This document shows, in pieces, positions 23,704 to 50,899 of a DNA stretch of 64,000 nucleotides. Position numbers and translations under genes: made by a program. The notes below the pieces were generated by a model, which saw only the letters and a program-made list of their open reading frames with translations, was not told the origin of the DNA and searched no databases. The stretch is from Bacteroidaceae bacterium (GTDB taxonomy: Bacteria; Bacteroidota; Bacteroidia; Bacteroidales; Bacteroidaceae), in NCBI GenBank assembly GCA_024401115.1, contig JAKSLP010000007.1, forward strand, positions 13,869 through 77,868, given 5' to 3'. Positions within the stretch are counted from its first letter, which is position 1. Each line of letters opens with the position of its first letter.

Positions 23704-23762
23704 AAAAATGGTCAAAAATGCAATAAAAAAAACCGGATGTTTGGGCATCCGGTCTGCATATT

Positions 23763-24173
23763 TTAGTGCTGTTCAATCTTCAGCAGTTCCAAGTCGAAAA
23801 TCAGGGTGGAATGGGCAGGAATATCGCCACATGCGGTTTTCCCGTATCCGTGCTGTGCCGGAATGTACAGTTCCATGCGGTCGCCTTCATGCATCTTGCT
23901 TAGGGCTATCTGCCAACCCATGATGAGGGTGCGCACCACGAAGCATGCCGGAAGGCGCTGTCCCTGTGTGGTGTCGAATACCGTACCGTCGGTCAGGCGT
24001 CCGGTATAGTTCACATACACAATGCTGCTGCCCTTGGGAAAGGGTCCGCCACTTCCCCGCTCTATCCAACGGTACATCACTCCGCTGTCCAGCACGATCA
24101 TACCCTCTTCCTGGGCTTTCTGCTTAAAGAACTCTAACTGCTCTTCCTTGTATATATTCTTCTTTTTCTTCAT
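23763..24173 (-). CDS. FKBP-type peptidyl-prolyl cis-trans isomerase
   Basis: YTGRLTDGTVFDT...GWQIAL...IPAHSTLIFDLELL motifs; ATG at 24173, 5 nt after the NRPS stop. Confidence 0.88.
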   Translation of the reverse strand: MKKKKNIYKEEQLEFFKQKAQEEGMIVLDSGVMYRWIERGSGGPFPKGSSIVYVNYTGRLTDGTVFDTTQGQRLPACFVVRTLIMGWQIALSKMHEGDRMELYIPAQHGYGKTACGDIPAHSTLIFDLELLKIEQH

Positions 24174-24178
24174 TTTCT

Positions 24179-27100
24179 TTACAGGTTCTGGGTAAACGGA
24201 CTGGATTTCATGGTGCTGACCACTTCGGGCAGATAATCTTCCTTCAGCAACTCGAAGTGGTTGATGGGCAGCGTGTGTATCTCGGCATCGGGATAATGGG
24301 TATGCCAGCATTCCCGGTTGTCGATGATGTCCTGCTCCAACGCCTTCCGCTCCTCCTCGGATATCTTACGGTCGGGGAACTCGAACGAGATATGCTGAGG
24401 TGTTACACCTGCCAGTATGATGAGCATAGGCCCCTGATATTCGGGTGGAAAGACTTGTGGCGACAGGGCATTGGATATACGCATACGTTCGGCTACGATG
24501 GGTGATTCCATTTCGTCTATCTCATCGATGCTCTGGGCACGGTGATAGATAGGATCAAACAGTAGCGCCAGTGGTTTCTTGTCCTGCAACTCACAGATAT
24601 CGTGTGCCATAAGTAGTGCCAAATCGGCACCAAAGCACAATCCGGCAACGATATCCACCTGACGTCCATCCAACAGGCGAAGCATGTCACTCTTGTAATC
24701 TTCCATCATTTCCTTTAGGTTGATTTCCTTCTTTTCCCAGAAGTATTCCACAAACGATTCCAGGATCAGGAAGTTGAAACGCTCGCGATAGAATTCCACA
24801 TAATCGGTATAGAGCGGATGCAGGTAGATGTAACCGCAATCCAGTACCACCGTTGGTCGGTCGGTAGGCGGTTCCAGCCAGTAGGCAAATGATTCCTTAT
24901 GATTAGGCAGACGGGTGATGTTCCGGCTGATATGACGGATATTGCGCCACTGATACAGGTCGGATACGTGCAACTGATAGCCTTGTTCCATGGCACAGAA
25001 CGAGAAACGTGCGGCCTGAATGGAGGTGATGCCCAATTCGGTAAACAGGTCTTCTGTCACACTGATGTCCTTTCCTCCGATGACGGTCGACAGGAGTCGC
25101 GCCAGACGGTCCTCGGTAGCGGTTATGGCTGGCATCACCACTTTCTTCTCCTTCTTGCGCTGTGGCTTGGGCAGTCGGGCATAATCTACCTTATCGTTGG
25201 CTTTCAGCGGTATCTCGCTGATAACCTCCAACCAATCGGGAACCATGTATTCCGGCAGACGCTTACTCAGGAACTTGCGAAGAAATTCATTATTGACTGG
25301 TTTGGCAGCGGTATACCACAGGCAGAGCTGGTCGGCTCCATCTACCTTGCATACCTGCGCAACTGCCTGAATCACTTCCGGATAAATAGAGGCGGCTGTC
25401 TCAATCTCACCCAATTCGATGCGGTATCCACGTATCTTTACCTGATTGTCATTGCGTCCCACATATTCCAGTTGGTTGTCAGCATTCCAGCGCACTAAAT
25501 CTCCGGTACGGTACATGGTCTTCCATCCCATTTCGTTGGTGAACGGCATGGGCACAAAGGCCTTCTGTGTCTGTTCCGGCAGGTTGATATAGCCATCGGC
25601 TATCTGTTCACCGGCCAGATACAACTCGCCCACACATCCTTTAGGCAGCATACGGGCATTACCGTCCAATACCATCGCCAAGCTTTGGCTCAAGGGGCGA
25701 CCGATTGGAATATTGGCGGGAACCTGTCCGCTGTGGCATATATAATAGGTGGCATCGACCGTAAATTCGGTAGGACCATAGGTGTTGTATACCGGAAACG
25801 CCAGTCCCTTGGGTATACTGACCAACTTCTCTCCGCCTACAGTCAGGTATCGCAATGGCAAATTGGGTACCAGTTCCAGCAACATGCTGCCTAAGACAGT
25901 GGTGAAATTGCAACCGGTTATGGCATGCTCACGGATATATTGGGCAATGCCGTGGATGTCCTTGGTAAGCGACTGCCTCAGGATATGCATGGTTCCTCCG
26001 CAGGTCAAAATGGGGTATAAATCCTCTACCGATGCATCGAAACTGAATGTTCCCTGACACAGGATGCGGTCGTTTTCGGACAACTGATAGAGTTGTGCCA
26101 TGGAACGGACAAATGAGGTCAGTGCCCGTCGGGATATCATCACGCCCTTAGGTTTGCCGGTTGAACCGGAAGTATAGATAATGTAGGATATTCCACTCTT
26201 TTTTAATGGCTTACCATGTATCTGTTGAATCTCTAATTGACCATTTACCTTACAGCACGCCCCACTGTCCTGACAGATAAAATCCATCCGTTCCTGTGGT
26301 GCATCGGTAGGGATGGGTACATATGTGGCACCCAACATGAGTGTGCCCAATGCGGCCACCATGAACTCTTTTCTTCGAGGCATGAGAAGTGCCACCACAT
26401 CGCTTGGGCCTACTCCACTCTGCTGAAGCTTTTGTGAGAATGCGGTCATGGCGGCATGCAACTGTCCGTAAGTCATCCTACTCTCGCAATCAACAATGGC
26501 TATATGATCCGGATTTTTGTGGCATTGTTCCTGAATAAGATCCAGCACATCTTTACCGGAATGCGCATAGGAAAGCGGTTCACCACTACCCAACTCCAAT
26601 AATTCCTGCTGCTGGGTTTCACTAACCAATGCCACATTTCCTACCGTTGCATCGGGATGAAGAATGATGTTCAGTGCCACCTGCATGATCATATCACACA
26701 TCTGATGCATCTGGGCCTCTGAATACCGGCCTTCGTTATAGCATAGTTCTATGATGTCCTCGCCGGTATCGGGATAGATGACCAGTGAAATATTCTCGGT
26801 GGAAAGCTGTGGCGGCAACTCGCGGATAGGCACCTGTCTGCCGTCCACTTCGATGAAAAGCGACAGCATCTGATAAGAGAACGAGTTGGACGGTTGCCTG
26901 TGCAAATCTCGACAGAAATGAGTAAACGGATAATTAGCGTGCCGCACGTTCTGCATCATCTGATGCTTAAAATGCTGCATCAGTTCCACCACAGGCGTAT
27001 CCGTTTGGGTAAGATCTGCATAAAAAGGTACCGTCTTGACAAACATGCCGTAGGTCTGACGTTGCTTCTTACTCTTTCGGCCATGATTCATTCCCTCGAA

Positions 27101-27862
27101 AGAAACCTTAGGCTCACCACTCAATACGCTCAGTACGATGGCATAAACCGCCATGTAGTACAGATTGGGCGTAATGTTATGGGTGGTACAGAAAGTGCCA
27201 ACTTCCTGTGAAGGCATAATGCGTGTGATGCGCTTCAATGCACCAATGGCACGTGGAGTGGCTGTATCAAGCATCGTCATGCCGTAACCGTTGAAGCATT
27301 GCGCATAGTAATCCTTATCCATCAGATAAGCCGGCGATGACAGATTCTGCATATCGTCGTTCACCACATCGCTGAACGGATAATCCTCTATACCGTCCAG
27401 AGATTCCGTACGGTAGAAGGTATCCAATTCGTGGTGGAAATTCACCCAGGTTCCTGAATCGGCTATGACATGGCTGGTGTCATTGAGCAGGTAAATCTGC
27501 TTTTCAGTCTTCACCACAGCCGAACGGAACAGCACATCTTCCCAAAGATTGAACGGACGGATGAACTGCTCACGGTAATTGGCATACTGCTCCTCACTCA
27601 TGTAAAGCATCGGAACATTTATGCTGATTTCATCGTCAATATATTGGGCTAATTCCCCATCCTTATTTATAATATGTGTCTTGAAGATGGCGTGCTTGGC
27701 GAATACAGTTCTGGCTGAACGGCACAATAGTTCCGCATCCATATCGAGCGGAAAATCGTACTGCACTGAAATGTTGTTCTGGGTGGTATCCGGATGCTGA
27801 ATCCACTCCAGGACAATTCCCATCTGGGATTCGGATAACGGATAGGTATGTTTCAGGCCCAT
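24179..27862 (-). CDS. single-module non-ribosomal peptide synthetase, C-A-T-TE
   Basis: C domain with SHVIADSG (variant of HHxxxDG). A-domain cores YTSGSTGKPKGV, FDAS, NTYGPTE, YRTGDLVRW, QVKIRGYRIELGEIE and NDKVD. Carrier motif LGITSI. C-terminal alpha/beta-hydrolase with GLCFG and INHF. Confidence 0.9.
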   Translation of the reverse strand: MGLKHTYPLSESQMGIVLEWIQHPDTTQNNISVQYDFPLDMDAELLCRSARTVFAKHAIFKTHIINKDGELAQYIDDEISINVPMLYMSEEQYANYREQFIRPFNLWEDVLFRSAVVKTEKQIYLLNDTSHVIADSGTWVNFHHELDTFYRTESLDGIEDYPFSDVVNDDMQNLSSPAYLMDKDYYAQCFNGYGMTMLDTATPRAIGALKRITRIMPSQEVGTFCTTHNITPNLYYMAVYAIVLSVLSGEPKVSFEGMNHGRKSKKQRQTYGMFVKTVPFYADLTQTDTPVVELMQHFKHQMMQNVRHANYPFTHFCRDLHRQPSNSFSYQMLSLFIEVDGRQVPIRELPPQLSTENISLVIYPDTGEDIIELCYNEGRYSEAQMHQMCDMIMQVALNIILHPDATVGNVALVSETQQQELLELGSGEPLSYAHSGKDVLDLIQEQCHKNPDHIAIVDCESRMTYGQLHAAMTAFSQKLQQSGVGPSDVVALLMPRRKEFMVAALGTLMLGATYVPIPTDAPQERMDFICQDSGACCKVNGQLEIQQIHGKPLKKSGISYIIYTSGSTGKPKGVMISRRALTSFVRSMAQLYQLSENDRILCQGTFSFDASVEDLYPILTCGGTMHILRQSLTKDIHGIAQYIREHAITGCNFTTVLGSMLLELVPNLPLRYLTVGGEKLVSIPKGLAFPVYNTYGPTEFTVDATYYICHSGQVPANIPIGRPLSQSLAMVLDGNARMLPKGCVGELYLAGEQIADGYINLPEQTQKAFVPMPFTNEMGWKTMYRTGDLVRWNADNQLEYVGRNDNQVKIRGYRIELGEIETAASIYPEVIQAVAQVCKVDGADQLCLWYTAAKPVNNEFLRKFLSKRLPEYMVPDWLEVISEIPLKANDKVDYARLPKPQRKKEKKVVMPAITATEDRLARLLSTVIGGKDISVTEDLFTELGITSIQAARFSFCAMEQGYQLHVSDLYQWRNIRHISRNITRLPNHKESFAYWLEPPTDRPTVVLDCGYIYLHPLYTDYVEFYRERFNFLILESFVEYFWEKKEINLKEMMEDYKSDMLRLLDGRQVDIVAGLCFGADLALLMAHDICELQDKKPLALLFDPIYHRAQSIDEIDEMESPIVAERMRISNALSPQVFPPEYQGPMLIILAGVTPQHISFEFPDRKISEEERKALEQDIIDNRECWHTHYPDAEIHTLPINHFELLKEDYLPEVVSTMKSSPFTQNL

Positions 27863-27883
27863 TTTCTTCTTACAATTAGTGGT

Positions 27884-30268
27884 TTAGAACTGGTATGAGA
27901 CAGTGGTCAGGAAAGTGCGGCCTTCCTGATAGATAGGAATACGGTCGCCACCCAAACGGTACAGATGATTGAACACGTTCTTCACGTTGCACACCAGTTC
28001 CACTCTCTTCCATTCGTAGCGTGCACCCAGATTCACCAGGCAATAGGTTGGCAAATTCAAGACTTTACCTGCTAAACATTCATCATTCTGATAAACATCC
28101 ACATTATAGAACAGGAATTTCTGGCGTGAAGAGATTCCCATACTTGCATTAACCGACAGTCCCTTGGTCAATTTCTGACTGCCCAGAATGTGGAAAGTCA
28201 CATTAGGTACAGCATAGATGTCATGAGCATCGGCATGATAACCAGAGGATTGCATGGAACGCTGCATATACAGGTTGGCATGAATGTCTGTCCCCTTGTG
28301 CTGGTAGGTAAGGCTATGCTCAAGGCCCATAGATTTCAAACATCCTGAATTTGTATAAGATACAGAAGTGAGGGTGATGAGATCTTCAACATGGTGATAG
28401 AAAGCATTGCCCTGATAGGTGAGATGCAAATCGGGGAATTTGAGGGTGGCGGACAACTGTATATTATCCAGGAACTGAGGATTCAAACTCTCGTTACCGA
28501 TATACATGATGCGTGATGCACGGTAGAAATAGGAGGCATCCTCATAAGAACGGGCATAGGACAGCAGCACGTTAAAGTTGCTGTTGCGCTTCCAGATCAA
28601 TGAGAGTCGGGGTGACAGCACATGCTGGTCCTTTCCTTCAAAGCGATGCTTGTAGTCGTAGCGCAAACCACCGTTGAACAGCCAATGATCATTGAAACTA
28701 TGCTTTAACTGCACAAAGGTAGATGCACCATACTCTCGGTGATTGGAGAAAATGATGGAACGGTCGTTGGCACTGGAAACCAGGATACGGTTGAAGTGAT
28801 CACCAAAGGCCATATCATTGAAATACAGGTTGAAGTAGTTGTACTGAAAACCTGCCAACAGATTTCCCTTTCCGGTTTTTCCTGCACGATAGTCGTACAT
28901 GCCCCGCAATTCGCCTGCCGCTGTATAACTCTTCCAGCTCTGCAACTGAAATACACCACTTTGTATTAAGGTATGTTCTTTATCAAAGGCTTCGTCCTTC
29001 CAGGGCAGCAAACCCAGAATATCCTGACGCTCTTCCGGAATGCTATCGCCCACAATGTTGTAAAGCGAAGCATCCTGCATGCTTAAGGTGGCATTGGCTA
29101 TCAGATGCACGTTCTTTAGGGTATGGCTGTAATTCAGATTACCTATTGTGGCACGCACCGAACGGCCAGGCTTAGTGTTCTGTATGGTTTGGTAGGCATC
29201 ATAATCATAATAGGTAGGAACCAGCATGTTGGTATAGGTATACACACGCTTGCTGTGCTGACGGGTCAGTTGCAGCTTGAAATCCTTCCATCGCAGGGTT
29301 AAGCCAAAATCGTAGGCAGGCTGATTGTTATATCCGTTTACATAGGAATAGGCCTTATAAGGATATGAGCCATAGAAATTCTTGTCGTTTACCGGTATGT
29401 CATGACGGTAACCGCGGGAACTGTAGATGGATGCCCATGCCATGATGTCGGTGTCCAGGAAACTCTTGCCCCACAGGATGTTACCCTTAACGGTATGCAT
29501 ATTTCCCACACCTACGGAAGCCTTAAAGCCATCCAATTCATGGCCTTCCTTGGTGATGATATTCACTACGGCGGTCAGGGAAACCGAACCGTAAAGTGAG
29601 GATGCGGCACCGCGAAGCACCTCGACCTGCTTGATGTTCTCGAGCATGATGCGGTAATCGGGTGCCACAGAATTGGTGACATAACTGTTCAGACGCACAC
29701 CGTTAAGCAGAATCAGGATATTCTCCTGTGAATAGGAATAGACACCACGCATACTCAGGTTACTCTCCTCGCCTTCCACCACATTCATACCCGGAACATA
29801 ATCCACCAGCAGTTCCTGAAGGGTGCGGGCACCGGAAGTGCGTATCATCTCTTCGGTAATCAGCGTTACGGGAACAGGGGCTTCCTCTATACTCTCGGCC
29901 TGCTGAGATGCTGTGGTAATCTGGGCACCGTGACGGTAGGAATTGACCAGATCCACAAAACGCACCGGATCAGTAAAGGCGGTGGTGTAATTGGGATCGT
30001 TCTTAAGAAGCAGTTGCACATACTTTTGTGCATCCTCATCCAAATCCTCGAACAGGGCACAAAGGGTGAGCATGCGGTAGGCACTACTGCGTTGGGAATG
30101 ATCAAAATGATTCATGTTTTCCTGCAGTATCTGGCGGGCATAATCCACTCTACCCTCATTATACGCCTCCTCGGCCTGAATAAATATGGTGCGAACATTG
30201 CTGCCCTGTGCCATCAGGTCCGGGGCAATCAACATCAATAATACTATCAGTAAATATCTCATTTTCAT
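27884..30268 (-). CDS. TonB-dependent receptor-like outer-membrane barrel with N-terminal TPR-like extension
   Basis: Signal peptide MKMRYLLIVLL...MAQ (ATG at 30268 or 30262); plug motifs (VTLITEEMIRTSGARTLQELL, LNGVRLN); C-terminal ...TTVSYQF barrel end. Confidence 0.8.
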   Translation of the reverse strand: MKMRYLLIVLLMLIAPDLMAQGSNVRTIFIQAEEAYNEGRVDYARQILQENMNHFDHSQRSSAYRMLTLCALFEDLDEDAQKYVQLLLKNDPNYTTAFTDPVRFVDLVNSYRHGAQITTASQQAESIEEAPVPVTLITEEMIRTSGARTLQELLVDYVPGMNVVEGEESNLSMRGVYSYSQENILILLNGVRLNSYVTNSVAPDYRIMLENIKQVEVLRGAASSLYGSVSLTAVVNIITKEGHELDGFKASVGVGNMHTVKGNILWGKSFLDTDIMAWASIYSSRGYRHDIPVNDKNFYGSYPYKAYSYVNGYNNQPAYDFGLTLRWKDFKLQLTRQHSKRVYTYTNMLVPTYYDYDAYQTIQNTKPGRSVRATIGNLNYSHTLKNVHLIANATLSMQDASLYNIVGDSIPEERQDILGLLPWKDEAFDKEHTLIQSGVFQLQSWKSYTAAGELRGMYDYRAGKTGKGNLLAGFQYNYFNLYFNDMAFGDHFNRILVSSANDRSIIFSNHREYGASTFVQLKHSFNDHWLFNGGLRYDYKHRFEGKDQHVLSPRLSLIWKRNSNFNVLLSYARSYEDASYFYRASRIMYIGNESLNPQFLDNIQLSATLKFPDLHLTYQGNAFYHHVEDLITLTSVSYTNSGCLKSMGLEHSLTYQHKGTDIHANLYMQRSMQSSGYHADAHDIYAVPNVTFHILGSQKLTKGLSVNASMGISSRQKFLFYNVDVYQNDECLAGKVLNLPTYCLVNLGARYEWKRVELVCNVKNVFNHLYRLGGDRIPIYQEGRTFLTTVSYQF

Positions 30269-30273
30269 AGGCA

Positions 30274-31662
30274 TCATTTCAGTTTTTCGTAAGGAATATC
30301 CTTTCCTACATACGCATTCCACTCCTCTTGGGTAAAGTCGCGCTTCAGGTTGTCGTGGGTTTTCCGTGCCAGCAAGGTGGGTTCCAATACGATACGTGTC
30401 AATGATCCGATACCGTCGGATATCCACTTGTATCTGCCCATGATCAGGAAATCATTAATCCAACGTCCGCCTTCCAACTTGCAGATGGTAAGGGGCTCCA
30501 GAACTTCGGAACTGAGGTTCCATAGCTGAACTGTACAATCATAGCTGCTGGTGTAGAGGAAATTATCACGGAACATCACTTTGCTAATCTGAGATTTGTG
30601 GGCAAACAGTTGATTTTTGATATTGAACTTACTATCAGTCAAATAAATAGAACCGTCCTTCATGCCAAATGCCCATAATCCATCGGCCGATTGTGCCAAT
30701 GCGGTAATCTGTTCTGAGGCTATGCTCCGGGGCAGGGAGCGTTTCAGTTGCTCAATCTGTTTTTCCTGTTTTACGGATGGGAACAACGGCAGGATATTCT
30801 TGGTGTCCGACATCCACACACCGTCCTTCATTACTTCCCTGTTACGGGTAAGTGCATAGATATGTCCGTCCTTATCAATATAGACATCACGGAAATCCTG
30901 TCGGTTGTCGGCATAGAGTGTTTGCGGACGCATCCGTCCCTCGATGTCGCTCCATCGAACCAGTTCACCGTAGCGGCCCACAGTCACCAGTTCATTCCGG
31001 CCAATCATGCCGATGGCATTCAGTCCTGCCTTATGTGGCTGAACGGAATACATCTGACTTCCGGTGAGTTTGATGGCGGCATAGATGGCACGTTGATACT
31101 TGCTCTCGCCATTGCGTTGTGAGAAAACCCATGCCCCATATGATAGCAGGTTGGCCAGCTCCATATTGTCGCTATTGTACAGATTCACAGCCTGATTGGC
31201 CATGGCATGAGCCAGGGATACCTGACTCAAACGTTCGGCTTCGGCCTGACGGTCCTCGGCTACCTGCTTCTGGCGTTTGGCTTCATCGGCATTTCTCCCG
31301 GCTTCTATGGCATTCTGCTCGGCCTGAATACGGGCTTCATTGGCGAGATGCTCCTCGGATTGCGCCTTAGCACGCATCTGATTGGCTAGAACGGTCTGTT
31401 CCTTAGCCAGTTCTGCCTGTTTGATGGCCTCTTCCCTTTCCTTTTCAGAAACCTTCTGCTGTTCACGTGCTATCTCCTCCATCTGCTGACTGACACGCTG
31501 AACCACAATGGTCTGCTTTTCCTCATCGGTCAGACGCTGGTTGTCCTTTACCAGTTCCGCTATGCGTGCAGCATCAGAACGATGCTGAAGGTATAGGAAT
31601 CCGGCACCTGCCAGCAATATGGCCAATAAGCTATATCGTGCTATCTTTCTGATGGGTTTCAT
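30274..31662 (-). CDS. membrane-anchored coiled-coil / WD40-like beta-propeller protein
   Basis: N-terminal TM helix; about 130 aa of E/Q/A/K-rich coiled coil; C-terminal repeats including LYTSSYDCTVQLWNL. Confidence 0.65.
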   Translation of the reverse strand: MKPIRKIARYSLLAILLAGAGFLYLQHRSDAARIAELVKDNQRLTDEEKQTIVVQRVSQQMEEIAREQQKVSEKEREEAIKQAELAKEQTVLANQMRAKAQSEEHLANEARIQAEQNAIEAGRNADEAKRQKQVAEDRQAEAERLSQVSLAHAMANQAVNLYNSDNMELANLLSYGAWVFSQRNGESKYQRAIYAAIKLTGSQMYSVQPHKAGLNAIGMIGRNELVTVGRYGELVRWSDIEGRMRPQTLYADNRQDFRDVYIDKDGHIYALTRNREVMKDGVWMSDTKNILPLFPSVKQEKQIEQLKRSLPRSIASEQITALAQSADGLWAFGMKDGSIYLTDSKFNIKNQLFAHKSQISKVMFRDNFLYTSSYDCTVQLWNLSSEVLEPLTICKLEGGRWINDFLIMGRYKWISDGIGSLTRIVLEPTLLARKTHDNLKRDFTQEEWNAYVGKDIPYEKLK

Positions 31663-34316
31663 GCTTCTACAGGAATTATAACGGTGAATTCGGTAAACTG
31701 GTCTTTCTCAGAGGATAACGTAATGGTTCCACCATGATTCTCAATGATTTCACGGGTCAGGTACATGCCCACACCCGCAGCTTCGGCCGTAGGTTTGGTA
31801 GTAAAGAACGGGTCGAAAATCTTATCCTTGATGCTCTCCTCAATACCAATTCCGTTGTCGCGCAAGGTCAGTTTGGCGTTACGACTTTCGCGGGTAAGTG
31901 TCAGTTTCAATTCGGGCTGATAGCTAGCAGGATGGCGTTCTGCCTTTTTGTTGATGGCATAGATGGCATTGGCTATCATGCTCATAATGGATTTGGTCAG
32001 TTGCTCGTTGATTCCCTGGCACTTGATGTCGGGCTGAACATCCCAATGCAACTGAATATTCCATTGACTGACAGGCTTTTCGAAATACTTGTTGACGTAA
32101 AGTAAGGCCTGCTGGCATATCGAACTCAGGTCAATCTGAACAAACTGTCCGCTCCGGTCCTTCAGCATCTCCTCCATGGATTTCAGGATTCGGGTAGTGC
32201 TCTGTCCGTGTTCCTCAATCTTCTTGAGGTTGGTATTCATCATATCCAGAATTTCTTGGATATCCTCATAATTGTCAGGAGTAATCTTATCCTCATCATC
32301 CTCCAGGTCCTCCTTCAAGTCCTTGGTGAGTCCCAGGGTTAGATGCGAGAAATTATTGATGTAGTTCATCGGGTTCAGGATTCGGTCGATCAAACCCTTA
32401 GTCAGCTGACCTACAGTAGCTTCCTTCTGCTTGCGCAACAGTTCGGCATGGGCTATTTCCAATTCGGCGGTACGGTCCAGTACCAGCAGTTCCAAGCGCT
32501 TCTGCTCCTCTTCCATGCGATGCTGTTCTGCTCTCAGCTTTCTCATCTTACGTGCAGAATAGAAAATAATGAGTGAGCGGACAACATGAGCCAATATCAC
32601 AATATAAATCAGGAAAGCCCACCATTTCATGTAGAAAGGATAAGGTACCTTAAATCGGACGGTAGCCGGTTCCGAGATGTTGTTGAAACCGTCCTGAACA
32701 CGCACACTGAAATTGTAATTGCCATAACTCAACTGAGTCAGTCTCAGTTCCTTATCATCGTCCCAATCCGACCATTCATCCTTATCGCTGAGTCGGTAGC
32801 TGAACAGCACATTATCCAACGGGTCGTATTTGTCGGTAGAAAATGATGCCGTAAAGGTCTGGTCATCAGCATAAAGCGAGCGGATGATGACCTTGGGCAA
32901 ATAAGGCTGGTTCTGGCGAGCCTGTGTGATGTCCACCTTGGCCAACCCGAAAGTACCGCCCAACCATGCTGCATCCTTATCCAGATAGAGAGCCTGAATG
33001 TTATGATTGCGGAAGGAACTGAGCCATACATGAATCTTCGGATCACTTACATTCAGGTGGTCGCCTTTCTCATCCGTATACCAGCTGGTGCCGTCAGCAC
33101 TTTTTAATTCCAGCCAATGATCGGAATCCACTCTCTCCTTTTCCACGAAGTCGAATTTTCCGGTACGGGAATCAGTCTGGTATATCTCACCCTTCTCGTT
33201 CTGAGCGGTAACGATACCGTTGGCATCCATGCTCAGGCTGGAAATAAACTTCAAGTCGGATACCTTGGTGCTGCTGCCACGGGAATCATGCAGGTAGATG
33301 CCATCCAATTCGGCTGACAGCAGGCGATTCTCATCAACGGAAACGGCACATAGGGAATGCGTCATGAACAGTTGAGTGGCTGTCACACCCTGAATCTTGT
33401 AGATACCGTCGCTACAGGATGCTATCAGGGTTCCCTGGGGAGTTTCGGTCAGAGCCCAACACATCTGATCCATGCCGTTGATATGCTCTGCATGTTGCCC
33501 GTTTACCCGATACAGGCCCCTCATGGTACCCACATACAGGATGCCTTTATTGCGGTGAATGCAGGACACATCGCCCAAAAGTCCCTGTTTATCAGTCAGA
33601 ATAGTTAAAACCGGATTCCAGTCGATACGGAACAGTCCCGAATTAGTGGCTCCCCAAACCGAACCCTTGCCATCGGTGGAGATGCTGTTGATGGAATTTC
33701 CGCATAATCCGTCGGCATCGGTAATGCTGTACAGGAACTTGCCGTTGGCATCCTGGGCAATCAGACCGTGATCGGTGGCCACAAAGAAGGTGTTCTTGTC
33801 CAACTGCACACGGTTTTGCTTATCGCCATTGGAATTCAGATAACCGGCCGACTGATTCTCCGTAATCAGCGTTTCACGCCAAATCCGGATCTCTTCAGGA
33901 ATATCCTCTTTGGTGGACGCAACTTTCTCCTCGTTATCACTAATGACCGTATGAAGATCCCATCCCTGAAGGTCGCCTCCGGAAACATAGCCCAAATAAT
34001 TGAAATTATAGGCCCATACTACTCCACTGTTATCGGCCTTAAGGTTGGTGATTCGGGTGATGCGTGGGGTATACAACTTTACCCATTTCACTCCGTCAAA
34101 GATAAGCAAGCCCTCAAAATTGCCCACATACACATGACCGATGGAATCGCAGAGAATATCCAGGTTTACACTGTGGGCATTATAGTCCTGTGCCGTATAG
34201 TTGCGGAATAACGGCAAACCTACTTCCTTGGCTGTGGCCTGTACGGAAAAGAACGACAGGAACAGGAAAAGGAAGCATCCTATTGTGTAACGGATATGTG
34301 CGAACTGACTCATCAT
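31659..34316 (-). CDS. sensor histidine-kinase-like protein with periplasmic two-component-regulator propeller + Y_Y_Y domain
   Basis: The Y_Y_Y segment (YRLSDKDEWSDWD...YGNYNFSVRV) is followed by a TM helix. HATPase_c boxes NAIYAI, DNGIGI, FDPFFTTK and GVGMYL are present. The H-box position reads IDRILNP, with Asp in place of His. Confidence 0.8.
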   Translation of the reverse strand: MMSQFAHIRYTIGCFLFLFLSFFSVQATAKEVGLPLFRNYTAQDYNAHSVNLDILCDSIGHVYVGNFEGLLIFDGVKWVKLYTPRITRITNLKADNSGVVWAYNFNYLGYVSGGDLQGWDLHTVISDNEEKVASTKEDIPEEIRIWRETLITENQSAGYLNSNGDKQNRVQLDKNTFFVATDHGLIAQDANGKFLYSITDADGLCGNSINSISTDGKGSVWGATNSGLFRIDWNPVLTILTDKQGLLGDVSCIHRNKGILYVGTMRGLYRVNGQHAEHINGMDQMCWALTETPQGTLIASCSDGIYKIQGVTATQLFMTHSLCAVSVDENRLLSAELDGIYLHDSRGSSTKVSDLKFISSLSMDANGIVTAQNEKGEIYQTDSRTGKFDFVEKERVDSDHWLELKSADGTSWYTDEKGDHLNVSDPKIHVWLSSFRNHNIQALYLDKDAAWLGGTFGLAKVDITQARQNQPYLPKVIIRSLYADDQTFTASFSTDKYDPLDNVLFSYRLSDKDEWSDWDDDKELRLTQLSYGNYNFSVRVQDGFNNISEPATVRFKVPYPFYMKWWAFLIYIVILAHVVRSLIIFYSARKMRKLRAEQHRMEEEQKRLELLVLDRTAELEIAHAELLRKQKEATVGQLTKGLIDRILNPMNYINNFSHLTLGLTKDLKEDLEDDEDKITPDNYEDIQEILDMMNTNLKKIEEHGQSTTRILKSMEEMLKDRSGQFVQIDLSSICQQALLYVNKYFEKPVSQWNIQLHWDVQPDIKCQGINEQLTKSIMSMIANAIYAINKKAERHPASYQPELKLTLTRESRNAKLTLRDNGIGIEESIKDKIFDPFFTTKPTAEAAGVGMYLTREIIENHGGTITLSSEKDQFTEFTVIIPVEA

Positions 34317-34442
34317 TGTGCAAATTTATTAAAATTGCCATTCAAAAACAAATAAAAACAGAGCCAATTTCGGTGAATTTGCAAAACTCATCATTTTTTC
34401 AAAATGATAGTATATCGATGCATGAAATGATAAAAAAATCAT

Positions 34443-34450
34443 TATCTTTG
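34443..34450 (+). promoter_or_regulatory. -7 box TATCTTTG for the RR-PP2C/kinase operon
   Basis: Exact TAnnTTTG 26 nt upstream of the ATG at 34476. Confidence 0.5.
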
Positions 34451-34475
34451 CAGAAATAGGTTTAAAACACACAAT

Positions 34476-35636
34476 ATGGCAGTTAAAATATTAAGTGTAG
34501 ATGATGAGATGGATTTGGAAGTCCTGCTCACCCAGTATTTCCGCAGAAAGATCCGCAAGGGAGAATATGAGTTTTTCTTTGCCCATAACGGTCTTGAGGC
34601 CCTGGACATACTGCTCAAGAATCCCGATATCGAAATCGTGCTGAGTGACATCAACATGCCCGAGATGGACGGACTGACCATGCTGGCCAAACTGAACGAG
34701 ATGCATAATCCGGCCCTGAAGTGTATCATGGTGTCGGCTTACGGTGATATGGGTAATATCCGTCAGGCAATGAATGGTGGTGCCTTTGATTTTGCCACCA
34801 AGCCTATCGACTTGGACGACCTTTCCGTGACCATTGAGAAGGCCATTGAACAGATAGAATTTGTGCGCAAGTCGCAGGCCGAGCATGCCAAACTGGTAGA
34901 TATTCAGGGAGATTTGGATGCTGCCAGTCAGATTCAGCAAGCCATTCTTCCTAATTATGAGGATTTCCTGAAACAGACGAATTTGCCGGTTTGCCTCTGT
35001 TCCTCGATGAAGGCTGCCAAGGATGTGGGAGGTGATTTCTTCGACTTCTTTGCCTTGGATGATCATCGTATGGCGTTTACCATTGCCGATGTAAGCGGTA
35101 AGGGAATGCCTGCTGCTCTGTTCATGGCCGTGAGCCGAACGGTAATCCGTACCTACGGTATGCAGGGACTGAGTTCGCAGGAATGTATGGCTAATGCCAA
35201 TAAGATGCTTTGCACAGAGAGCCTTAACTCTATGTTTGTCACTACATTCTATGGTATCTATGACACTACCACCGGATTAATCGACTATACCAATGCCGGT
35301 CATAATCCTCCTTATGTGCTGAAAGCCGACGGAAGTGTTCAGGCGCTTCCAATCTGCAAGAACATTGCCCTTGGTGTGTTTGATTTTCCATTTACCAGCA
35401 ATGAACTGCAACTGGAACCTGGTGACACCTTGGTGATGTATACCGATGGAGTAACCGAAGCACACAACAATCAGAAGGGTGATTACGGTGAGGAGCGTCT
35501 GGAAGCATTATTGCCTACACTCAAGGGTAAGAGCAGCAGCGAGATATGTGATGCCATCAAGAAGGATGTAGAGAAATTTGTGGACGGAGATCCTCAGTCT
35601 GACGATATGACTATGCTGATACTGAAGCGTCCTTAA
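34476..35636 (+). CDS. response-regulator receiver fused to PP2C/SpoIIE protein phosphatase
   Basis: Receiver motifs VDDE...LSDINMPEMDG...ATKP; phosphatase motifs GGDFFDF, ADVSGKGMPAALFM and YTDGVTEA. Confidence 0.88.
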   Translation: MAVKILSVDDEMDLEVLLTQYFRRKIRKGEYEFFFAHNGLEALDILLKNPDIEIVLSDINMPEMDGLTMLAKLNEMHNPALKCIMVSAYGDMGNIRQAMNGGAFDFATKPIDLDDLSVTIEKAIEQIEFVRKSQAEHAKLVDIQGDLDAASQIQQAILPNYEDFLKQTNLPVCLCSSMKAAKDVGGDFFDFFALDDHRMAFTIADVSGKGMPAALFMAVSRTVIRTYGMQGLSSQECMANANKMLCTESLNSMFVTTFYGIYDTTTGLIDYTNAGHNPPYVLKADGSVQALPICKNIALGVFDFPFTSNELQLEPGDTLVMYTDGVTEAHNNQKGDYGEERLEALLPTLKGKSSSEICDAIKKDVEKFVDGDPQSDDMTMLILKRP

Positions 35637-35653
35637 CTGAAAATGACTGTACG

Positions 35654-36490
35654 ATGGAAAATGTAGAAAACCTTCACGAGCAGATTGAGAAGTTGCAGAA
35701 GCAACTGGTCAGTCAGGAGAAGATGGCCTCTTTGGGGTTATTGAGTGCGGGAATTGCCCATGAGATTCAGAATCCGCTGAATTTTGTGATCAATTTTTCA
35801 AAGTTGTCCGTAAAGCTGCTGAACGACTTACTGGAAGTGGTAGACGACTGTAAGGATAAGTTGACCGAAGATGAAGCGGCTGATATTGAGGATATTTCAG
35901 CTGATTTGCAATCCAATCTGAAAAAGATTTCCGAACATGGTGAGCGTGCCATCAGCATTATTCAGGGTATTCTGCTGCAGAGCCGGGGAAAGGCTGGCGA
36001 GAAACTGCCGACAGATGTCTGCAAACTGACTCATGAATATGTTTGGCTCTCCTATCATGCCATGAGAGCCCGAAACAACAAGTTCAATATCACTATCCGT
36101 GAGGACTATCCGGACAACCTGAAAATGCAGTTGCTGGTTCCTCAGGATTTCAGTCGCGCTATCCTGAATGTTGTTAATAATGCGTTCTATGCTGTTTGGG
36201 AAAAAGCTCAACAGGAGGTGGAAGTCTATGAACCTATTGTATCGGTTGCCGTAAAACAGGAAGGCAACCAATTGCTTATCCTGATTGCAGATAATGGAAA
36301 CGGTATTTCTGCTGAGATTCAGCAGAAACTGTTCCATGAGGTGATTACCACCAAACCGGTTGGAAAAGGTACAGGCTTGGGCATGAGCATCACCCGCCAG
36401 CTGATGGAGGAGAATCTGGAAGGAAGTATTTCTTTTACAACTGAAATGGGTAGCGGTACTACATTTAAGCTAATTATTCCTTATAAATAA
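35654..36490 (+). CDS. soluble histidine kinase (HisKA + HATPase_c)
   Basis: H-box GIAHEIQNPLNF; N/G boxes NNAFYAV, DNGNGI and GTGLGMS; no TM segments. Confidence 0.85.
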   Translation: MENVENLHEQIEKLQKQLVSQEKMASLGLLSAGIAHEIQNPLNFVINFSKLSVKLLNDLLEVVDDCKDKLTEDEAADIEDISADLQSNLKKISEHGERAISIIQGILLQSRGKAGEKLPTDVCKLTHEYVWLSYHAMRARNNKFNITIREDYPDNLKMQLLVPQDFSRAILNVVNNAFYAVWEKAQQEVEVYEPIVSVAVKQEGNQLLILIADNGNGISAEIQQKLFHEVITTKPVGKGTGLGMSITRQLMEENLEGSISFTTEMGSGTTFKLIIPYK

Positions 36491-37879: not shown

Positions 37880-37956
37880 GTTTATCGGATGTTTGTATAA
37901 GGTTTTCATTTCCGGATACAAATTAAGCGAAAAACGGGCAAACTACCAAAAACACA

Positions 37957-42919: not shown

Positions 42920-42926
42920 AAAATTA

Positions 42927-43478
42927 TCAGCAAACAACGGTCAGGAATTTCACTTCCTTACCCCCCAGGGCTCTCATGCCATGAGGTAATTCTGAATTTA
43001 AATAAATGCTGTCCCCTACTTCCAGGATCATCTTCTTCACGCTGACGGTCAGCTCTAGGGTGCCTTCCACCACCATGATGAATTCCTGTCCGGAATGGGT
43101 GTTCAGAGGCACTTCGTCGGTATCCTTAGGGCTTACGGTCACCATAAACGGTTCCATGGTTCTGCCACGGAATCCACTGGCTAAGGATTCATATTTATAG
43201 GCTTTTCTTCGCTCAATGCTCACGCCCGCATTCGCACGGGTCAGGAAATAACTGCTCAACTTCGGTTCCTCGCCAAACATAAGCACCTCCAGTCCTATGC
43301 CGTACTGGCGGGAAATGTTCTGCAGGGCAGCCACCGAAATGTCGGATTCGCCACTCTCCACCAGCGCATATTCCTCGTCTGTATATCCGGCTGTAGCAGC
43401 CACCTCCTGAACGGTAAGACCCAGCACCTCCCTAAGTCCTTTCAGTCGTTCAGCAATCTGTCGGATTTCAGTGTCCAT
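42927..43478 (-). CDS. XRE-family HTH + cupin domain transcriptional regulator
   Basis: N-terminal HTH (LKGLREVLGLTVQEVAATAG); C-terminal cupin (GQEFIMVVEG...LPHGMRALG). Confidence 0.8.
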   Translation of the reverse strand: MDTEIRQIAERLKGLREVLGLTVQEVAATAGYTDEEYALVESGESDISVAALQNISRQYGIGLEVLMFGEEPKLSSYFLTRANAGVSIERRKAYKYESLASGFRGRTMEPFMVTVSPKDTDEVPLNTHSGQEFIMVVEGTLELTVSVKKMILEVGDSIYLNSELPHGMRALGGKEVKFLTVVC

Positions 43479-45187: not shown

Positions 45188-45232
45188 CATCAACAAAAAT
45201 TTCTTAGAAGAGTTTATTTTTCATAATGTACC

Positions 45233-49554: not shown

Positions 49555-49600
49555 CACACATATTCAGAATTCAGTAAATCTATAAACAATCCATACTCTT

Positions 49601-50893: not shown

Positions 50894-50899
50894 TTGTAT

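What the first reader, a model, noticed from the sequence alone, without database searches (positions are those of the whole stretch)
23763..36490. Single-module NRPS embedded in a sensor / outer-membrane operon, facing a receiver-PP2C + kinase pair
Five minus-strand genes are packed like one operon. The Y_Y_Y sensor (34316-31659) overlaps the coiled-coil/WD40 gene by 4 nt. That gene stops 5 nt before the TonB-type barrel start (30268). 21 nt separate the barrel from the C-A-T-TE NRPS, and 5 nt separate the NRPS from an FKBP isomerase. A receiver-PP2C(SpoIIE) phosphatase sits 159 bp away on the other strand, followed after 17 nt by a soluble histidine kinase. I do not recognise this combination as any described biosynthetic or signalling system. 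The layout suggests a signal-controlled small aminoacyl or acyl-aminoacyl product that is exported or re-imported through the dedicated barrel. The function is inference only.
Basis: partly seen in the sequence, partly recalled or inferred. Interest (0 to 1): 0.72.

Follow-up and report, generated by a model that had tools for sequence, protein, structure and literature searches.

The report
Bacteroidales synthetase–receptor–sensor gene cassette
The single-module peptide synthetase, its outer-membrane receptor and the unusual sensor proteins around it form a gene cassette conserved across gut and rumen Bacteroidales, including Bacteroides fragilis, that nobody appears to have characterised and that probably makes, re-imports and senses a small secreted molecule.

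Summary
All seven genes, their spacings and their domain calls hold. The C-terminal "TE" has no Pfam hit, but structure prediction shows a divergent thioesterase with a cysteine nucleophile.

The gene set is not a chance neighbourhood. Every relative of the synthetase with this TE that I looked up (11) sits beside the same partners. Eighty metagenome loci found through the WD40 gene alone (36 lineages) show one canonical order: receiver-PP2C, optional STAS and RsbW-like genes, membrane-anchored stalked WD40 propeller, Y_Y_Y sensor, small histidine kinase, TonB-dependent receptor, synthetase. The window carries a rearranged version.

New points:
- The Y_Y_Y "kinase" always has Asp in place of the phospho-accepting His (61/61). 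The small kinase always keeps His (59/59).
- The receptor has a conserved TPR-like N-terminal extension.
- The synthetase varies between lineages (A-T-TE, C-A-T-TE, A-T-C-A-T-TE, different A-domain codes).
- Some lineages keep the receptor and sensors but lack the synthetase.
- FKBP and the C45 hydrolase are not core parts.
- Bacteroides fragilis carries the cassette.

Best reading, which is inference: a produce, re-import and sense circuit whose output is a partner-switch phosphatase. I found no published characterisation.

The parts
24179..27862 (-). Monomodular NRPS of 1227 aa with C-A-T-TE architecture. C domain is roughly nt 27850-26597 (His131, Asp135). A domain is roughly 26554-25148. 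T domain is roughly 25108-24923 (Ser947). Cys-type thioesterase is 24910-24182 (Cys1076, Asp1103, His1202).
   Evidence: Pfam gives C, A and T. NCBIfam gives the adenylation domain. Core residues are invariant in the family alignment. The TE is assigned by AlphaFold model plus Foldseek. This TE family has only 75 representatives among 1.8 billion proteins, and wherever the listed protein is full-length the match lies at its C-terminus.
27884..30277 (-). TonB-dependent receptor (797 aa from 30277; 794 aa from the alternative start 30268). It has a signal peptide, then a conserved ~100-aa TPR-like N-terminal extension (about nt 30199-29903), then a TonB-box-like 'ITTAS', then plug and barrel.
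   Evidence: Pfam gives Plug and TonB_dep_Rec_b-barrel. The N-terminal extension is conserved in all 8 family members aligned. TPR hits are sub-threshold but consistent. PDB sequence similarity covers only the plug, matching CirA, PhuR, BtuB and FepA.
30274..31662 (-). Membrane-anchored stalked propeller protein (462 aa). It has an N-terminal TM helix, one long helix (residues 14-163, a stalk of about 19 nm), a small helical domain, a WD40-type beta-propeller (205-425) and a conserved C-terminal motif RDFTxEEWxYYIG.
   Evidence: Sequence. Pfam WD40-type hits. Family alignments. AlphaFold model with pLDDT 83. Foldseek returns generic WD40, Ycf48 and RACK1 propellers. The family has at least 142 clusters at 90% identity, all annotated as hypothetical.
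31659..34316 (-). Y_Y_Y / Reg_prop propeller sensor (885 aa). It has a signal peptide, a periplasmic sensor domain of about 540 aa, a TM helix at about residue 565, a DHp-like helix in which Asp644 replaces the phospho-acceptor His (nt 32387-32385), and an intact HATPase_c domain.
   Evidence: Pfam. Sequence. H-box alignment with the small kinase. All 61 complete family members read 'GLIDRI' at this position. Residue numbers.
34476..35636 (+). Receiver-PP2C (SpoIIE-type) phosphatase of 386 aa. The phospho-acceptor Asp58 and the PP2C metal-binding Asp motifs are present.
   Evidence: Pfam Response_reg plus SpoIIE. Best NCBIfam hit is Pseudomonas RssB, below its cut-off. Sequence. In WD40-anchored loci this gene lies directly upstream in 68 of 70 cases.
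35654..36490 (+). Small soluble histidine kinase (278 aa) with a canonical H-box (His36, nt 35759-35761) and a CA domain. Its DHp is paralogous to that of the Y_Y_Y sensor.
   Evidence: Pfam HisKA plus HATPase_c. Alignment. All 59 family members read 'GIAHE'. It follows the Y_Y_Y sensor in 59 of 59 loci.
23763..24173 (-). Cytoplasmic FKBP-type prolyl isomerase (136 aa) and last gene of the minus-strand unit. It is a lineage-specific passenger, not part of the conserved cassette.
   Evidence: Pfam FKBP_C. No signal peptide. Present only in the window and in the 90%-identical locus L085. Absent from all other loci.
23730..23755 (-). Terminator-like hairpin (10-bp stem followed by a T-run) immediately after FKBP. 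It is the predicted end of the minus-strand unit.
   Evidence: A TAnnTTTG motif at 23616-23609 (-) lies ahead of the next gene, the C45 lipoprotein.
34317..34475 (.). Divergent 159-bp intergenic region carrying Bacteroidetes-type -7 promoter motifs: TAAATTTG at 34328-34321 (-) and TATCTTTG at 34443-34450 (+).
   Evidence: These are motif matches only, with no transcript data.

Best explanation
The locus is a rearranged member of a conserved Bacteroidales cassette that links a small synthetase and a dedicated outer-membrane receptor to a trans-envelope sensing pathway.

Shown:
- The cytoplasmic NRPS (C-A-T plus a Cys-nucleophile TE) has all catalytic residues.
- The receptor is a classical TonB-dependent receptor, not SusC-type. 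It carries a conserved TPR-like periplasmic extension ahead of its TonB box.
- The WD40 protein is anchored in the inner membrane and carries its propeller on a stalk of about 19 nm.
- The Y_Y_Y propeller sensor has lost its phospho-acceptor His but keeps an ATPase domain.
- A paralogous soluble kinase keeps the His.
- The response regulator is a PP2C phosphatase, not a DNA binder.

Inferred mechanism:
1. The synthetase makes a small aminoacyl-derived compound that leaves the cell. In this lineage it is probably an N-substituted or cyclised amino acid. The A-domain code is DAENLVTVDK and is conserved in the lineage.
2. The cognate receptor brings the compound, or its loaded form, back across the outer membrane.
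3. Receptor occupancy or the periplasmic ligand is read by the stalked WD40 propeller and the Y_Y_Y domain.
4. The His-less sensor controls the His-bearing soluble kinase, either through a DHp heterodimer or by trans-phosphorylation.
5. The kinase sets the phosphorylation state of the receiver-PP2C.
6. The PP2C dephosphorylates a STAS protein in an RsbV/RsbW-type partner switch. That switch is encoded in cis in B. fragilis and other lineages but not within this 64-kb window.

The output is therefore post-translational. It may act on export, because RsbW-like domains are fused to MATE exporters next to related synthetases.

Strains that keep receptor and sensors but lack the synthetase would be listeners or pirates of the same compound. 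Whether the compound acts as a signal or as a nutrient or metal carrier is not resolved.
For: **Linkage**
- Every look-up of a TE-family synthetase lands in the cassette.
- Eighty loci found through the WD40 gene alone give one order: RR-PP2C, [STAS, RsbW-like], WD40, Y_Y_Y, small HK, TBDR, synthetase.
- Neighbour counts are 68/70, 72/74, 59/59 and 47/53, spread over 36 lineages.

**Parts**
- TE fold.
- Cys/Ser elbow, Asp and His at the canonical alpha/beta-hydrolase positions.
- His to Asp in 61/61 sensors, against His in 59/59 small kinases.
- Conserved TPR-like extension on the receptor.
- Stalk plus propeller model.
- STAS and HATPase_c_2 genes inside the cassette in other lineages.
- MatE-HATPase_c_2 fusions beside related NRPS genes.

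**Product and receptor logic**
- Receptor and sensors are retained intact where the synthetase is cleanly absent between conserved flanks: L156, L121 and L100 compared with L090.
- Tandem receptor duplications occur in L088, L121 and L128.
- Synthetase architecture and A-domain code differ between lineages while the sensors stay homologous.
Against: - No product, transcript, phosphotransfer or uptake data exist.
- No exporter, inner-membrane importer or DNA-binding regulator is conserved in the cassette.
- This window has no STAS or RsbW-like partner within 64 kb, so the PP2C substrate here is unknown.
- The sensors could respond to an unrelated cue and simply regulate the synthetase and receptor.
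- In ten loci, spread over about five lineages, a multi-module NRPS follows the small kinase with no receptor between them. The receptor is therefore not obligatory next to the synthetase.
- The periplasmic location of the WD40 domain rests only on the positive-inside rule.
- The A-domain code was derived by hand from remembered GrsA numbering. The substrate guess (a basic amino acid) is weak.
Confidence: 0.45

Rival explanations
1. Metallophore or scarce-nutrient acquisition system. The synthetase makes a chelator or carrier, the TonB-dependent receptor takes up the loaded form, and the sensors provide siderophore-style surface signalling. This is a sub-case of the produce-and-re-import model with a nutritional rather than a signalling purpose.
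For: - A synthetase next to a dedicated classical TonB-dependent receptor is the signature of siderophore clusters (established knowledge).
- The best NCBIfam and PDB similarities of the receptor are to siderophore, haem and B12 receptors, not to SusC.
- The N-terminal extension ahead of the TonB box resembles the layout of transducer-type receptors.
- Synthetase-less loci that keep the receptor look like piracy.
- C-A-T-TE is the architecture of EntF (hit far below cut-off).
Against: - No chelating-group biosynthesis genes (catechol, hydroxamate, thiazoline), no periplasmic binding protein or ABC importer, no reductase, and no ECF sigma/anti-sigma pair occur in any locus.
- The B. fragilis enzyme is only A-T-TE with a hydrophobic-type code, which is hard to reconcile with a metal chelator.
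- The N-terminal extension is TPR-like, not an STN domain.
Confidence: 0.2
2. Regulation only. The Y_Y_Y, WD40, kinase and PP2C module senses an external cue unrelated to the synthetase product, such as a glycan, a competitor or envelope stress. The synthetase and receptor are merely the regulated cargo, for example an antagonistic or host-directed metabolite.
For: - The four-gene signalling module is the invariant core, while the cargo varies: TBDR plus NRPS, NRPS alone, or TBDR alone.
- In Bacteroides, Y_Y_Y/Reg_prop sensors normally bind glycans imported by a neighbouring TonB-dependent transporter (established knowledge of hybrid two-component systems).
- Product chemistry differs between lineages.
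Against: - The module has no DNA-binding output and is co-transcribed with its supposed targets in the canonical operon, so simple transcriptional control of cargo is not evident.
- The receptor's family-specific N-terminal extension co-occurs with the sensors (tbNTE hits). That argues the receptor is part of the sensing path rather than cargo.
- No glycan-degrading genes or SusD are conserved in the cassette.
Confidence: 0.22
3. Envelope modification. The Cys-TE transfers the activated amino acid onto a lipid, glycan or protein acceptor, and the neighbouring envelope proteins monitor or use that modification. Nothing is secreted.
For: - A-T-TE and C-A-T-TE enzymes with no tailoring or export genes are compatible with aminoacyl transfer to a cellular acceptor.
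- Cys-nucleophile TEs favour transfer and cyclisation chemistry. ObiF1 and SulM are among the fold hits.
- The cassette is rich in envelope proteins.
Against: - Loci that lack the synthetase but keep the rest are easier to explain with a diffusible compound.
- Multi-module versions and neighbouring MATE exporters point to secreted peptides.
Confidence: 0.08
4. Chance adjacency. Unrelated genes happen to be packed together in this genome.
For: None beyond the lack of experimental data. FKBP and the C45 hydrolase are indeed unrelated passengers or neighbours.
Against: The same set recurs in 36 lineages at 26-40% protein identity, with fixed order and overlapping stop and start codons.
Confidence: 0.02

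Closest known systems
Siderophore NRPS / TonB-dependent transducer / cell-surface signalling systems (pyoverdine FpvA-FpvR-PvdS, FecA-FecR-FecI)
   Same: A synthetase sits next to a dedicated TonB-dependent receptor. The receptor has an extra N-terminal periplasmic domain ahead of the TonB box. An inner-membrane protein is built to reach across the periplasm. Receptor-only genotypes exist.
   Different: - The N-terminal domain is TPR-like, not STN.
- There is no ECF sigma/anti-sigma pair. Signalling runs through a His-less Y_Y_Y sensor, a soluble kinase and a receiver-PP2C.
- There are no chelator-building genes and no inner-membrane uptake genes.
- The synthetase can be as small as A-T-TE.
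Partner-switching modules with a receiver-PP2C input (RsbU/RsbV/RsbW; Pseudomonas HptB-HsbR-HsbA and RssB; Bordetella BtrU/V/W)
   Same: A REC-PP2C phosphatase is combined, in many lineages of the cassette, with a STAS protein and an RsbW-like HATPase_c_2 protein encoded side by side.
   Different: - No target sigma factor is evident.
- The module is embedded in a synthetase/receptor operon.
- STAS and RsbW are missing from this window.
- In some loci the RsbW-like domain is fused to a MATE exporter.
Bacteroides hybrid two-component systems with Reg_prop/Y_Y_Y periplasmic sensors that control polysaccharide utilisation loci
   Same: A periplasmic propeller plus Y_Y_Y sensor is encoded next to a TonB-dependent outer-membrane transporter. 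The logic would be the same: the transporter imports and the periplasmic domain senses.
   Different: - There is no fused receiver or AraC DNA-binding domain.
- The phospho-acceptor His is replaced by Asp.
- The transporter is not SusC-type and has no SusD partner.
- There are no glycan-degrading genes.
Small NRPSs of gut anaerobes with C-A-T-R architecture (dipeptide-aldehyde/pyrazinone family; AusA of Staphylococcus aureus)
   Same: They are the closest sequence relatives of the C-A-T part (31-33% identity over 80%; best NCBIfam hit AusA). They are also short assembly lines from gut bacteria.
   Different: They release product through a reductase domain instead of this Cys-TE. In the one TE-less relative whose context I inspected (L093) the sensors and receptor are absent. 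The contexts of the C-A-T-R relatives themselves were not inspected.
Cys-nucleophile thioesterases ObiF1 (obafluorin beta-lactone) and SulM (sulfazecin beta-lactam)
   Same: They are terminal alpha/beta-hydrolase TEs with Cys instead of Ser at the nucleophile elbow. Both appear among the structural matches.
   Different: Sequence identity is about 12-13%. The substrates and the reaction catalysed here are unknown.

Membership tests
Non-ribosomal peptide synthetase module (C-A-T-TE) | Condensation domain with the catalytic His of the HHxxxDG motif | tested here: met
   Pfam Condensation E=1.6e-46. The motif reads SHVIADSG. His131 and Asp135 are invariant in 16 family members. The domain is too divergent to assign a subtype: the best PDB hits have E around 1e-7.
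Non-ribosomal peptide synthetase module (C-A-T-TE) | Adenylation domain with core motifs, Asp235 and Lys517 equivalents (amino-acid substrate) | tested here: met
   TIGR01733 scores 344 bits against a cut-off of 317. Motifs YTSGSTGxPKG, YGPTE and GRxDxQxKxRGxRIELGEIE are invariant. The code is DAENLVTVDK. Residue positions were assigned from remembered GrsA numbering.
Non-ribosomal peptide synthetase module (C-A-T-TE) | Carrier domain with the phosphopantetheine-attachment Ser | tested here: met
   PP-binding scores 27.1 bits against a cut-off of 20.8. Ser947 is invariant.
Non-ribosomal peptide synthetase module (C-A-T-TE) | Terminal thioesterase: alpha/beta-hydrolase fold with a nucleophile-Asp-His triad | tested here: met
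   The window protein has no Pfam hit. The AlphaFold model (pLDDT 90) matches NRPS/PKS TE domains first. Cys1076 follows strand 87-91, Asp1103 follows strand 114-118, and His1202 follows strand 210-217. The B. fragilis homologue passes PF00975.
TonB-dependent receptor | Plug domain plus 22-strand barrel | tested here: met
   Plug scores 69.7 bits and the barrel 85.3 bits, both above cut-off.
TonB-dependent transducer (FecA/FpvA type) | N-terminal STN signalling domain, with a partner anti-sigma factor and ECF sigma factor | tested here: not met
   No STN hit. The extension gives only sub-threshold TPR hits. No sigma or anti-sigma gene occurs in any locus.
SusC/RagA-type transporter of a polysaccharide utilisation locus | CarboxypepD_reg N-terminal domain and an adjacent SusD-family gene | tested here: not met
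   Neither was found. PDB similarity is to CirA, BtuB and FepA plugs only.
Siderophore biosynthetic gene cluster | Genes for metal-binding groups, plus periplasmic-binding and inner-membrane uptake components | tested here: not met
   None occur in the window or in the related loci. Regulation by metals is not testable here.
Histidine kinase (HisKA type), Y_Y_Y sensor 31659-34316 | Phospho-acceptor His in the H-box of the DHp helix | tested here: not met
   Asp644 occupies the His position (GLIDRILNP against GIAHEIQNP in the small kinase). This holds in 61 of 61 family members. The HATPase_c domain is present.
Histidine kinase (HisKA type), small kinase 35654-36490 | H-box His plus a CA domain with N, G1, F and G2 boxes | tested here: met
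   HisKA scores 27.9 bits and HATPase_c 63.1 bits. His36 is conserved in 59 of 59 members.
Partner-switching system (RsbU/V/W type) | PP2C phosphatase, STAS antagonist and RsbW-like serine kinase encoded together | tested here: inconclusive
   The PP2C is present (SpoIIE, 184 bits). STAS and HATPase_c_2 are absent from the 64-kb window. They are present inside the cassette in B. fragilis and other lineages. The target protein is unknown.
Bacteroides hybrid two-component system | Reg_prop/Y_Y_Y sensor fused to HisKA, HATPase, receiver and an AraC-type HTH | tested here: not met
   Only Reg_prop, Y_Y_Y (weak) and HATPase_c were found. There is no receiver and no HTH.
BamJ (Bacteroidota BAM-associated FKBP lipoprotein) | NCBIfam NF053689 score above cut-off, and export to the envelope (signal peptide or lipobox) | tested here: not met
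   The score is 109.6 against a cut-off of 100, on the 182-aa ORF. Neither possible N-terminus has a signal peptide or lipobox. It is better read as a cytoplasmic FKBP.

The most novel reading that the evidence does not exclude
The cassette is a previously unrecognised, Bacteroidales-specific cell-cell communication or 'public-good sensing' pathway.
- Lineage-specific small peptides or aminoacyl compounds made by Cys-TE synthetases act as extracellular cues.
- A TonB-dependent receptor takes them up. Its TPR-like extension hands the signal to a periplasm-spanning WD40 stalk protein and a His-less Y_Y_Y sensor.
- The output is a post-translational partner switch rather than transcription.
- Synthetase-less strains act as eavesdroppers.

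This would be the first self-produced small-molecule signalling circuit described in gut Bacteroides, and a new architecture for trans-envelope signalling.
Probability: 0.3. Interest if true: 0.9.

Novelty: new variant of a known kind. Interest (0 to 1): 0.74.

Why it matters
Gut Bacteroides are generally held to make no siderophores of their own and to have no self-produced small-molecule signal with a known receptor. This statement rests on my own knowledge.

Here a synthetase, a dedicated receptor and an elaborate sensor chain are inherited together across Prevotella-like and Bacteroidaceae MAGs and in Bacteroides fragilis. In B. fragilis the synthetase clusters hold 1614 and 619 member sequences from metagenomes and genomes. 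Because B. fragilis is genetically tractable, the question 'what does this molecule do and who listens to it' becomes directly testable.

The parts are also unusual in their own right:
- a conserved pairing of a His-less sensor with a His-bearing soluble kinase;
- a TonB-dependent receptor with a TPR-like extension;
- an inner-membrane WD40 propeller on a long stalk;
- RsbW-like domains fused to MATE exporters;
- a divergent family of Cys-nucleophile thioesterases that Pfam misses in most members.

Tried and rejected
1. **Genome-contig scan with the whole NRPS alignment.** No family member was returned, so the only scan of that collection was wasted. The organism was identified instead by exact-sequence look-up: a Bacteroidaceae MAG, GCA_024500545.1.
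2. **STAS, RsbW-like, DJ-1, MATE and DUF2582 homologues in the window.** Searched with phmmer and none found.
3. **Nearby AMP-binding gene (41201-42937) as a partner acyl-activating enzyme.** It shares only 27% identity with the AMP-binding gene next to the cassette in L154, so there is no orthology or conserved link.
4. **FKBP and C45/Ntn-hydrolase as cassette members.** Rejected. They occur only in this lineage. A terminator-like hairpin follows FKBP, and a separate promoter motif and lipoprotein start precede the C45 gene.
5. **Genes downstream of the synthetase in other loci.** The 289-aa lipoprotein, the 300-aa membrane protein, the nitroreductase and the glyoxalase are lineage-specific.
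6. **L109 against L104 as a within-species presence/absence case.** Identity simply breaks at the 3' end of the receptor gene. This could be an assembly join, so it was not used as evidence.
7. **C-domain subtype from PDB similarity.** Too divergent to call.
8. **PADLOC defence models.** No hits.
9. **Sigma-70 promoter and terminator scan.** Counts are at the level of shuffled sequence, so only the one strong hairpin after FKBP was used.
10. **Nine literature searches.** None found a characterisation of the cassette.

Full report
**1. Observation**

On the minus strand:
- The Y_Y_Y sensor (34316-31659) overlaps the WD40 gene (31662-30274) by 4 nt.
- The TonB-dependent receptor starts at 30277 (4-nt overlap, as called in the 90%-identical locus L085) or at 30268 (5-nt gap).
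- 21 nt separate the receptor from the NRPS (27862-24179).
- 5 nt separate the NRPS from an FKBP gene, if FKBP starts at 24173 (136 aa, as in L085).

On the plus strand, 159 bp away, lies a receiver-SpoIIE gene (34476-35636). A small histidine kinase (35654-36490) follows 17 nt later.

A 10-bp hairpin with a T-run follows FKBP at 23755-23730 (-). Bacteroidetes-type -7 motifs (TAnnTTTG) sit in the divergent gap in both orientations. Another precedes the next minus-strand gene, a C45/Ntn-hydrolase lipoprotein that starts at 23580. The predicted units are therefore five genes on the minus strand and two on the plus strand, and the C45 gene stands apart. These are sequence predictions, not transcript data.

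The source is a Bacteroidaceae MAG, GCA_024500545.1. The NRPS is MCQ2238212.1.

**2. The synthetase**

Residues 1-983 form a complete C-A-T module.
- The catalytic His131 and Asp135 of the C domain are invariant across 16 relatives.
- All adenylation core motifs and the carrier Ser947 are also invariant.

The last 243 residues match no Pfam family and no PDB sequence. The family alignment nevertheless shows a G-x-C/S-x-G elbow, a conserved Asp and an invariant His.
- An AlphaFold model built on that alignment has pLDDT 90.
- It places Cys1076, Asp1103 and His1202 after the strands where alpha/beta-hydrolases carry their triad.
- Foldseek returns NRPS/PKS thioesterase domains first: NocB, pimaricin, Pks13, ObiF1, Vlm2 and SulM.
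- The homologous domain of the B. fragilis enzyme passes Pfam PF00975.

C-A-T-TE is therefore correct, but the TE is a divergent type. Its nucleophile is Cys in most members. The family has only 75 representatives among 1.8 billion proteins, and in full-length members the domain lies at the end of an NRPS.

The specificity residues, read from the alignment using my recollection of GrsA numbering, are DAENLVTVDK. They are conserved as DAEN[ILVM][VL][ST]VDK in the C-A-T-TE relatives. Two acidic positions hint at a basic amino acid, but this is a weak inference. The C domain is too divergent to classify, so its donor substrate is unknown.

**3. Is the neighbourhood conserved?**

Yes, and strongly so.

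*Look-ups starting from the synthetase.* Eleven TE-family synthetases at 32-90% identity all land beside the same partners:
- the window itself and P0001;
- P0005;
- P0015, on a truncated contig;
- P0016, P0014 and P0021;
- P0009 and P0022;
- P0382 and P0465.

The one relative without these neighbours is a TE-less two-module enzyme inside a large NRPS cluster.

*Look-ups starting from the WD40 gene.* A metagenome scan returned 80 loci in 36 lineages at 80% WD40 identity. HMMs built from the family proteins gave the same co-directional order in all of them: receiver-PP2C, [STAS, RsbW-like], WD40, Y_Y_Y sensor, small kinase, then cargo.

Where enough sequence was present:

| Neighbour | Present / loci with enough sequence |
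|---|---|
| Receiver-PP2C directly upstream of WD40 | 68 / 70 |
| Y_Y_Y sensor directly downstream of WD40 | 72 / 74 |
| Small kinase after the Y_Y_Y sensor | 59 / 59 |
| Receptor or synthetase next | 47 / 53 |

The window and its close relative L085 carry a rearranged version: the sensor comes before WD40, and the PP2C and small kinase are inverted. FKBP occurs only in this lineage.

**4. What the comparison adds**

(a) The Y_Y_Y 'kinase' is not a histidine kinase. Its DHp helix is paralogous to that of the small kinase, but it reads GLIDRILNP where the small kinase reads GIAHEIQNP. Asp replaces His in 61 of 61 sensors, and His is kept in 59 of 59 small kinases. Both keep ATP-binding domains. 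The pair therefore looks like a split system: a membrane sensor that cannot autophosphorylate on the canonical site, and a soluble partner that can.

(b) The receptor is a classical TonB-dependent receptor, with no SusC features and no SusD partner. It carries a family-specific extension of about 100 residues between the signal peptide and a TonB-box-like 'T(I/L)(T/V)TAS'. The extension is conserved in all members aligned and gives consistent sub-threshold TPR hits.

(c) The WD40 protein has an N-terminal membrane helix. AlphaFold models residues 14-163 as one continuous helix, followed by a small helical domain and a confident propeller. By the positive-inside rule the bulk of the protein is periplasmic. 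A stalk of about 19 nm could then reach the inner face of the outer membrane. This is inference.

(d) The output protein is a receiver-PP2C with intact Asp58 and metal-binding motifs. In B. fragilis and several other lineages, a STAS gene and an RsbW-like HATPase_c_2 gene sit inside the cassette. In two loci an RsbW-like domain is fused to a MATE exporter beside the synthetase. The window itself has none of these within 64 kb.

(e) The synthetase is the variable element.
- Architectures include A-T-TE (B. fragilis, 809-816 aa), C-A-T-TE, A-T-C-A-T-TE and longer lines.
- A-domain codes differ between lineages: DAENLVTVD here, DALFLFVVL in B. fragilis, and DADTLLGVC and DAWILVAVC elsewhere.
- The Cys-TE motif persists throughout.

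(f) Some lineages keep intact receptor and sensors but have no synthetase. In L156, L121 and L100 the flank (AAA_14 and pyruvate:ferredoxin oxidoreductase) is 73-85% identical to that of L090 (85% in L156, 81% in L100, 73% in L121). It resumes within about 20 bp of where the L090 synthetase ends. Tandem receptor duplications also occur.

(g) The human-gut lineage is Bacteroides fragilis and B. hominis. Its synthetase clusters hold 1614 and 619 members.

**5. Mechanism**

*Shown:* domain content, catalytic residues, fold of the TE and WD40 proteins, conserved order, the His-to-Asp change, variation of the synthetase, and synthetase-less variants.

*Inferred:* the compound made by the synthetase leaves the cell and is taken up again through the cognate receptor. 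Receptor occupancy or the periplasmic ligand is read by the WD40 stalk protein and the Y_Y_Y domain. The His-less sensor controls the soluble kinase, which sets the state of the receiver-PP2C. The PP2C then drives a STAS/RsbW partner switch whose target may be export.

This follows the established Bacteroides logic that a TonB-dependent transporter imports what a periplasmic Y_Y_Y sensor detects. It also follows the siderophore logic of synthetase plus dedicated receptor plus surface signalling. The wiring, however, has not been described.

I put about 0.45 on this circuit. Whether the compound is a signal or a nutrient carrier stays open.

*Rivals:*
- A metallophore system (0.2). It is weakened by the absence of chelator, binding-protein and importer genes, and by the A-T-TE form in B. 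fragilis.
- A sensor module responding to an unrelated cue with the synthetase and receptor as cargo (0.22). It is weakened by the lack of a DNA-binding output and by the receptor's family-specific extension.
- Envelope aminoacylation (0.08).
- Chance adjacency, which the comparative data exclude.

**6. Comparison with known systems and novelty**

No defining-feature test places the cassette in a described system:
- It is not a FecA-type transducer system, because it has no STN domain and no sigma/anti-sigma pair.
- It is not a polysaccharide utilisation locus or hybrid two-component system.
- It is not a recognisable siderophore cluster.
- It is only partly a partner-switching system in this window.

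The FKBP scores just above the BamJ cut-off but lacks any export signal.

Nine literature searches found no characterisation. A preprint of August 2026 (doi 10.64898/2026.08.08.743306) lists the B. fragilis A-T-TE cluster as 'NRPS-like 2', with no similarity to known clusters, and set it aside.

I rate the cassette a new variant of known kinds: a synthetase-receptor pair and a receiver-PP2C partner switch, joined by novel sensor parts. There is roughly a 0.3 chance that it represents a new class of trans-envelope signalling or communication in Bacteroidales.

**7. Verdict**

Functional linkage is strongly supported. The composition of the unit and the nature of the 'kinases' need correction. 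The function remains inferred.
- Interest is high, because the cassette is widespread, uncharacterised and present in a tractable, medically relevant species.

Noticed in passing
window 20294-22225 (-): A sulfatase / LTA-synthase-like gene is split into two same-frame ORFs (21584-22225 and 20294-21475) by an in-frame stop. In the related locus L085 it is one 647-aa gene, which aligns end to end at 84% identity in a single frame. This is either a pseudogene or a sequencing error.
   Followed up: partly
window 22297-23580 (-): A C45 / choloylglycine-hydrolase-family (Ntn hydrolase) lipoprotein lies directly downstream of the FKBP gene. It has its own -7 promoter motif (23616-23609) and follows a terminator-like hairpin. 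It is conserved only in the close relative L085 and is not part of the cassette.
   Followed up: yes
window 36671-37921 (-): A 'sugar-binding cellulase-like' gene (PF12876, E=3e-152) sits between the small kinase and the Sel1-repeat gene. It is absent at that position in the 90%-identical locus L085, which suggests a recent insertion or deletion.
   Followed up: no
L088 13785-15554; L093 8245-9993: Proteins that fuse a MATE (MatE) efflux transporter to an RsbW-like HATPase_c_2 domain are encoded next to NRPS genes in two unrelated Bacteroidales loci. This hints that export may be under partner-switch control.
   Followed up: partly
L156, L121, L100 compared with L090: The synthetase is cleanly absent between the receptor gene and a conserved AAA_14/PFOR flank. 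The flank is 73-85% identical to L090 (85% in L156), whereas the cassette genes are only 64-73% identical. The cassette may therefore evolve faster than its surroundings.
   Followed up: partly
L001 351-911; L087 1448-2029; L174 1515-2075: A DJ-1/PfpI-family gene is conserved next to the RsbW-like gene in three lineages of the cassette. In L001 and L174 a nitroreductase and a glyoxalase-fold gene follow the synthetase. Their roles are unknown.
   Followed up: no
window 23763-24311 (-): The FKBP ORF scores above the curated cut-off of the NCBIfam BamJ model (109.6 against 100) although it has no signal peptide or lipobox. An automatic annotation as BamJ would probably be wrong.
   Followed up: yes
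window 45221-47440: The anaerobic ribonucleotide reductase gene nrdD (45233-47440, +) is mirrored by a 737-aa antisense ORF (45221-47434, -) with no family hit. The antisense ORF is almost certainly an artefact.
   Followed up: partly
window 49600-64000: G+C content falls to 36-43% in parts of this stretch (52-54 kb and 58-64 kb). The stretch holds an AbiEii-like AAA_21 ATPase, a DnaG-like primase (CHC2 zinc finger plus Toprim), a PD-(D/E)XK transposase-family gene and SPFH/DUF805 genes. It looks like a mobile or horizontally acquired island.
   Followed up: no
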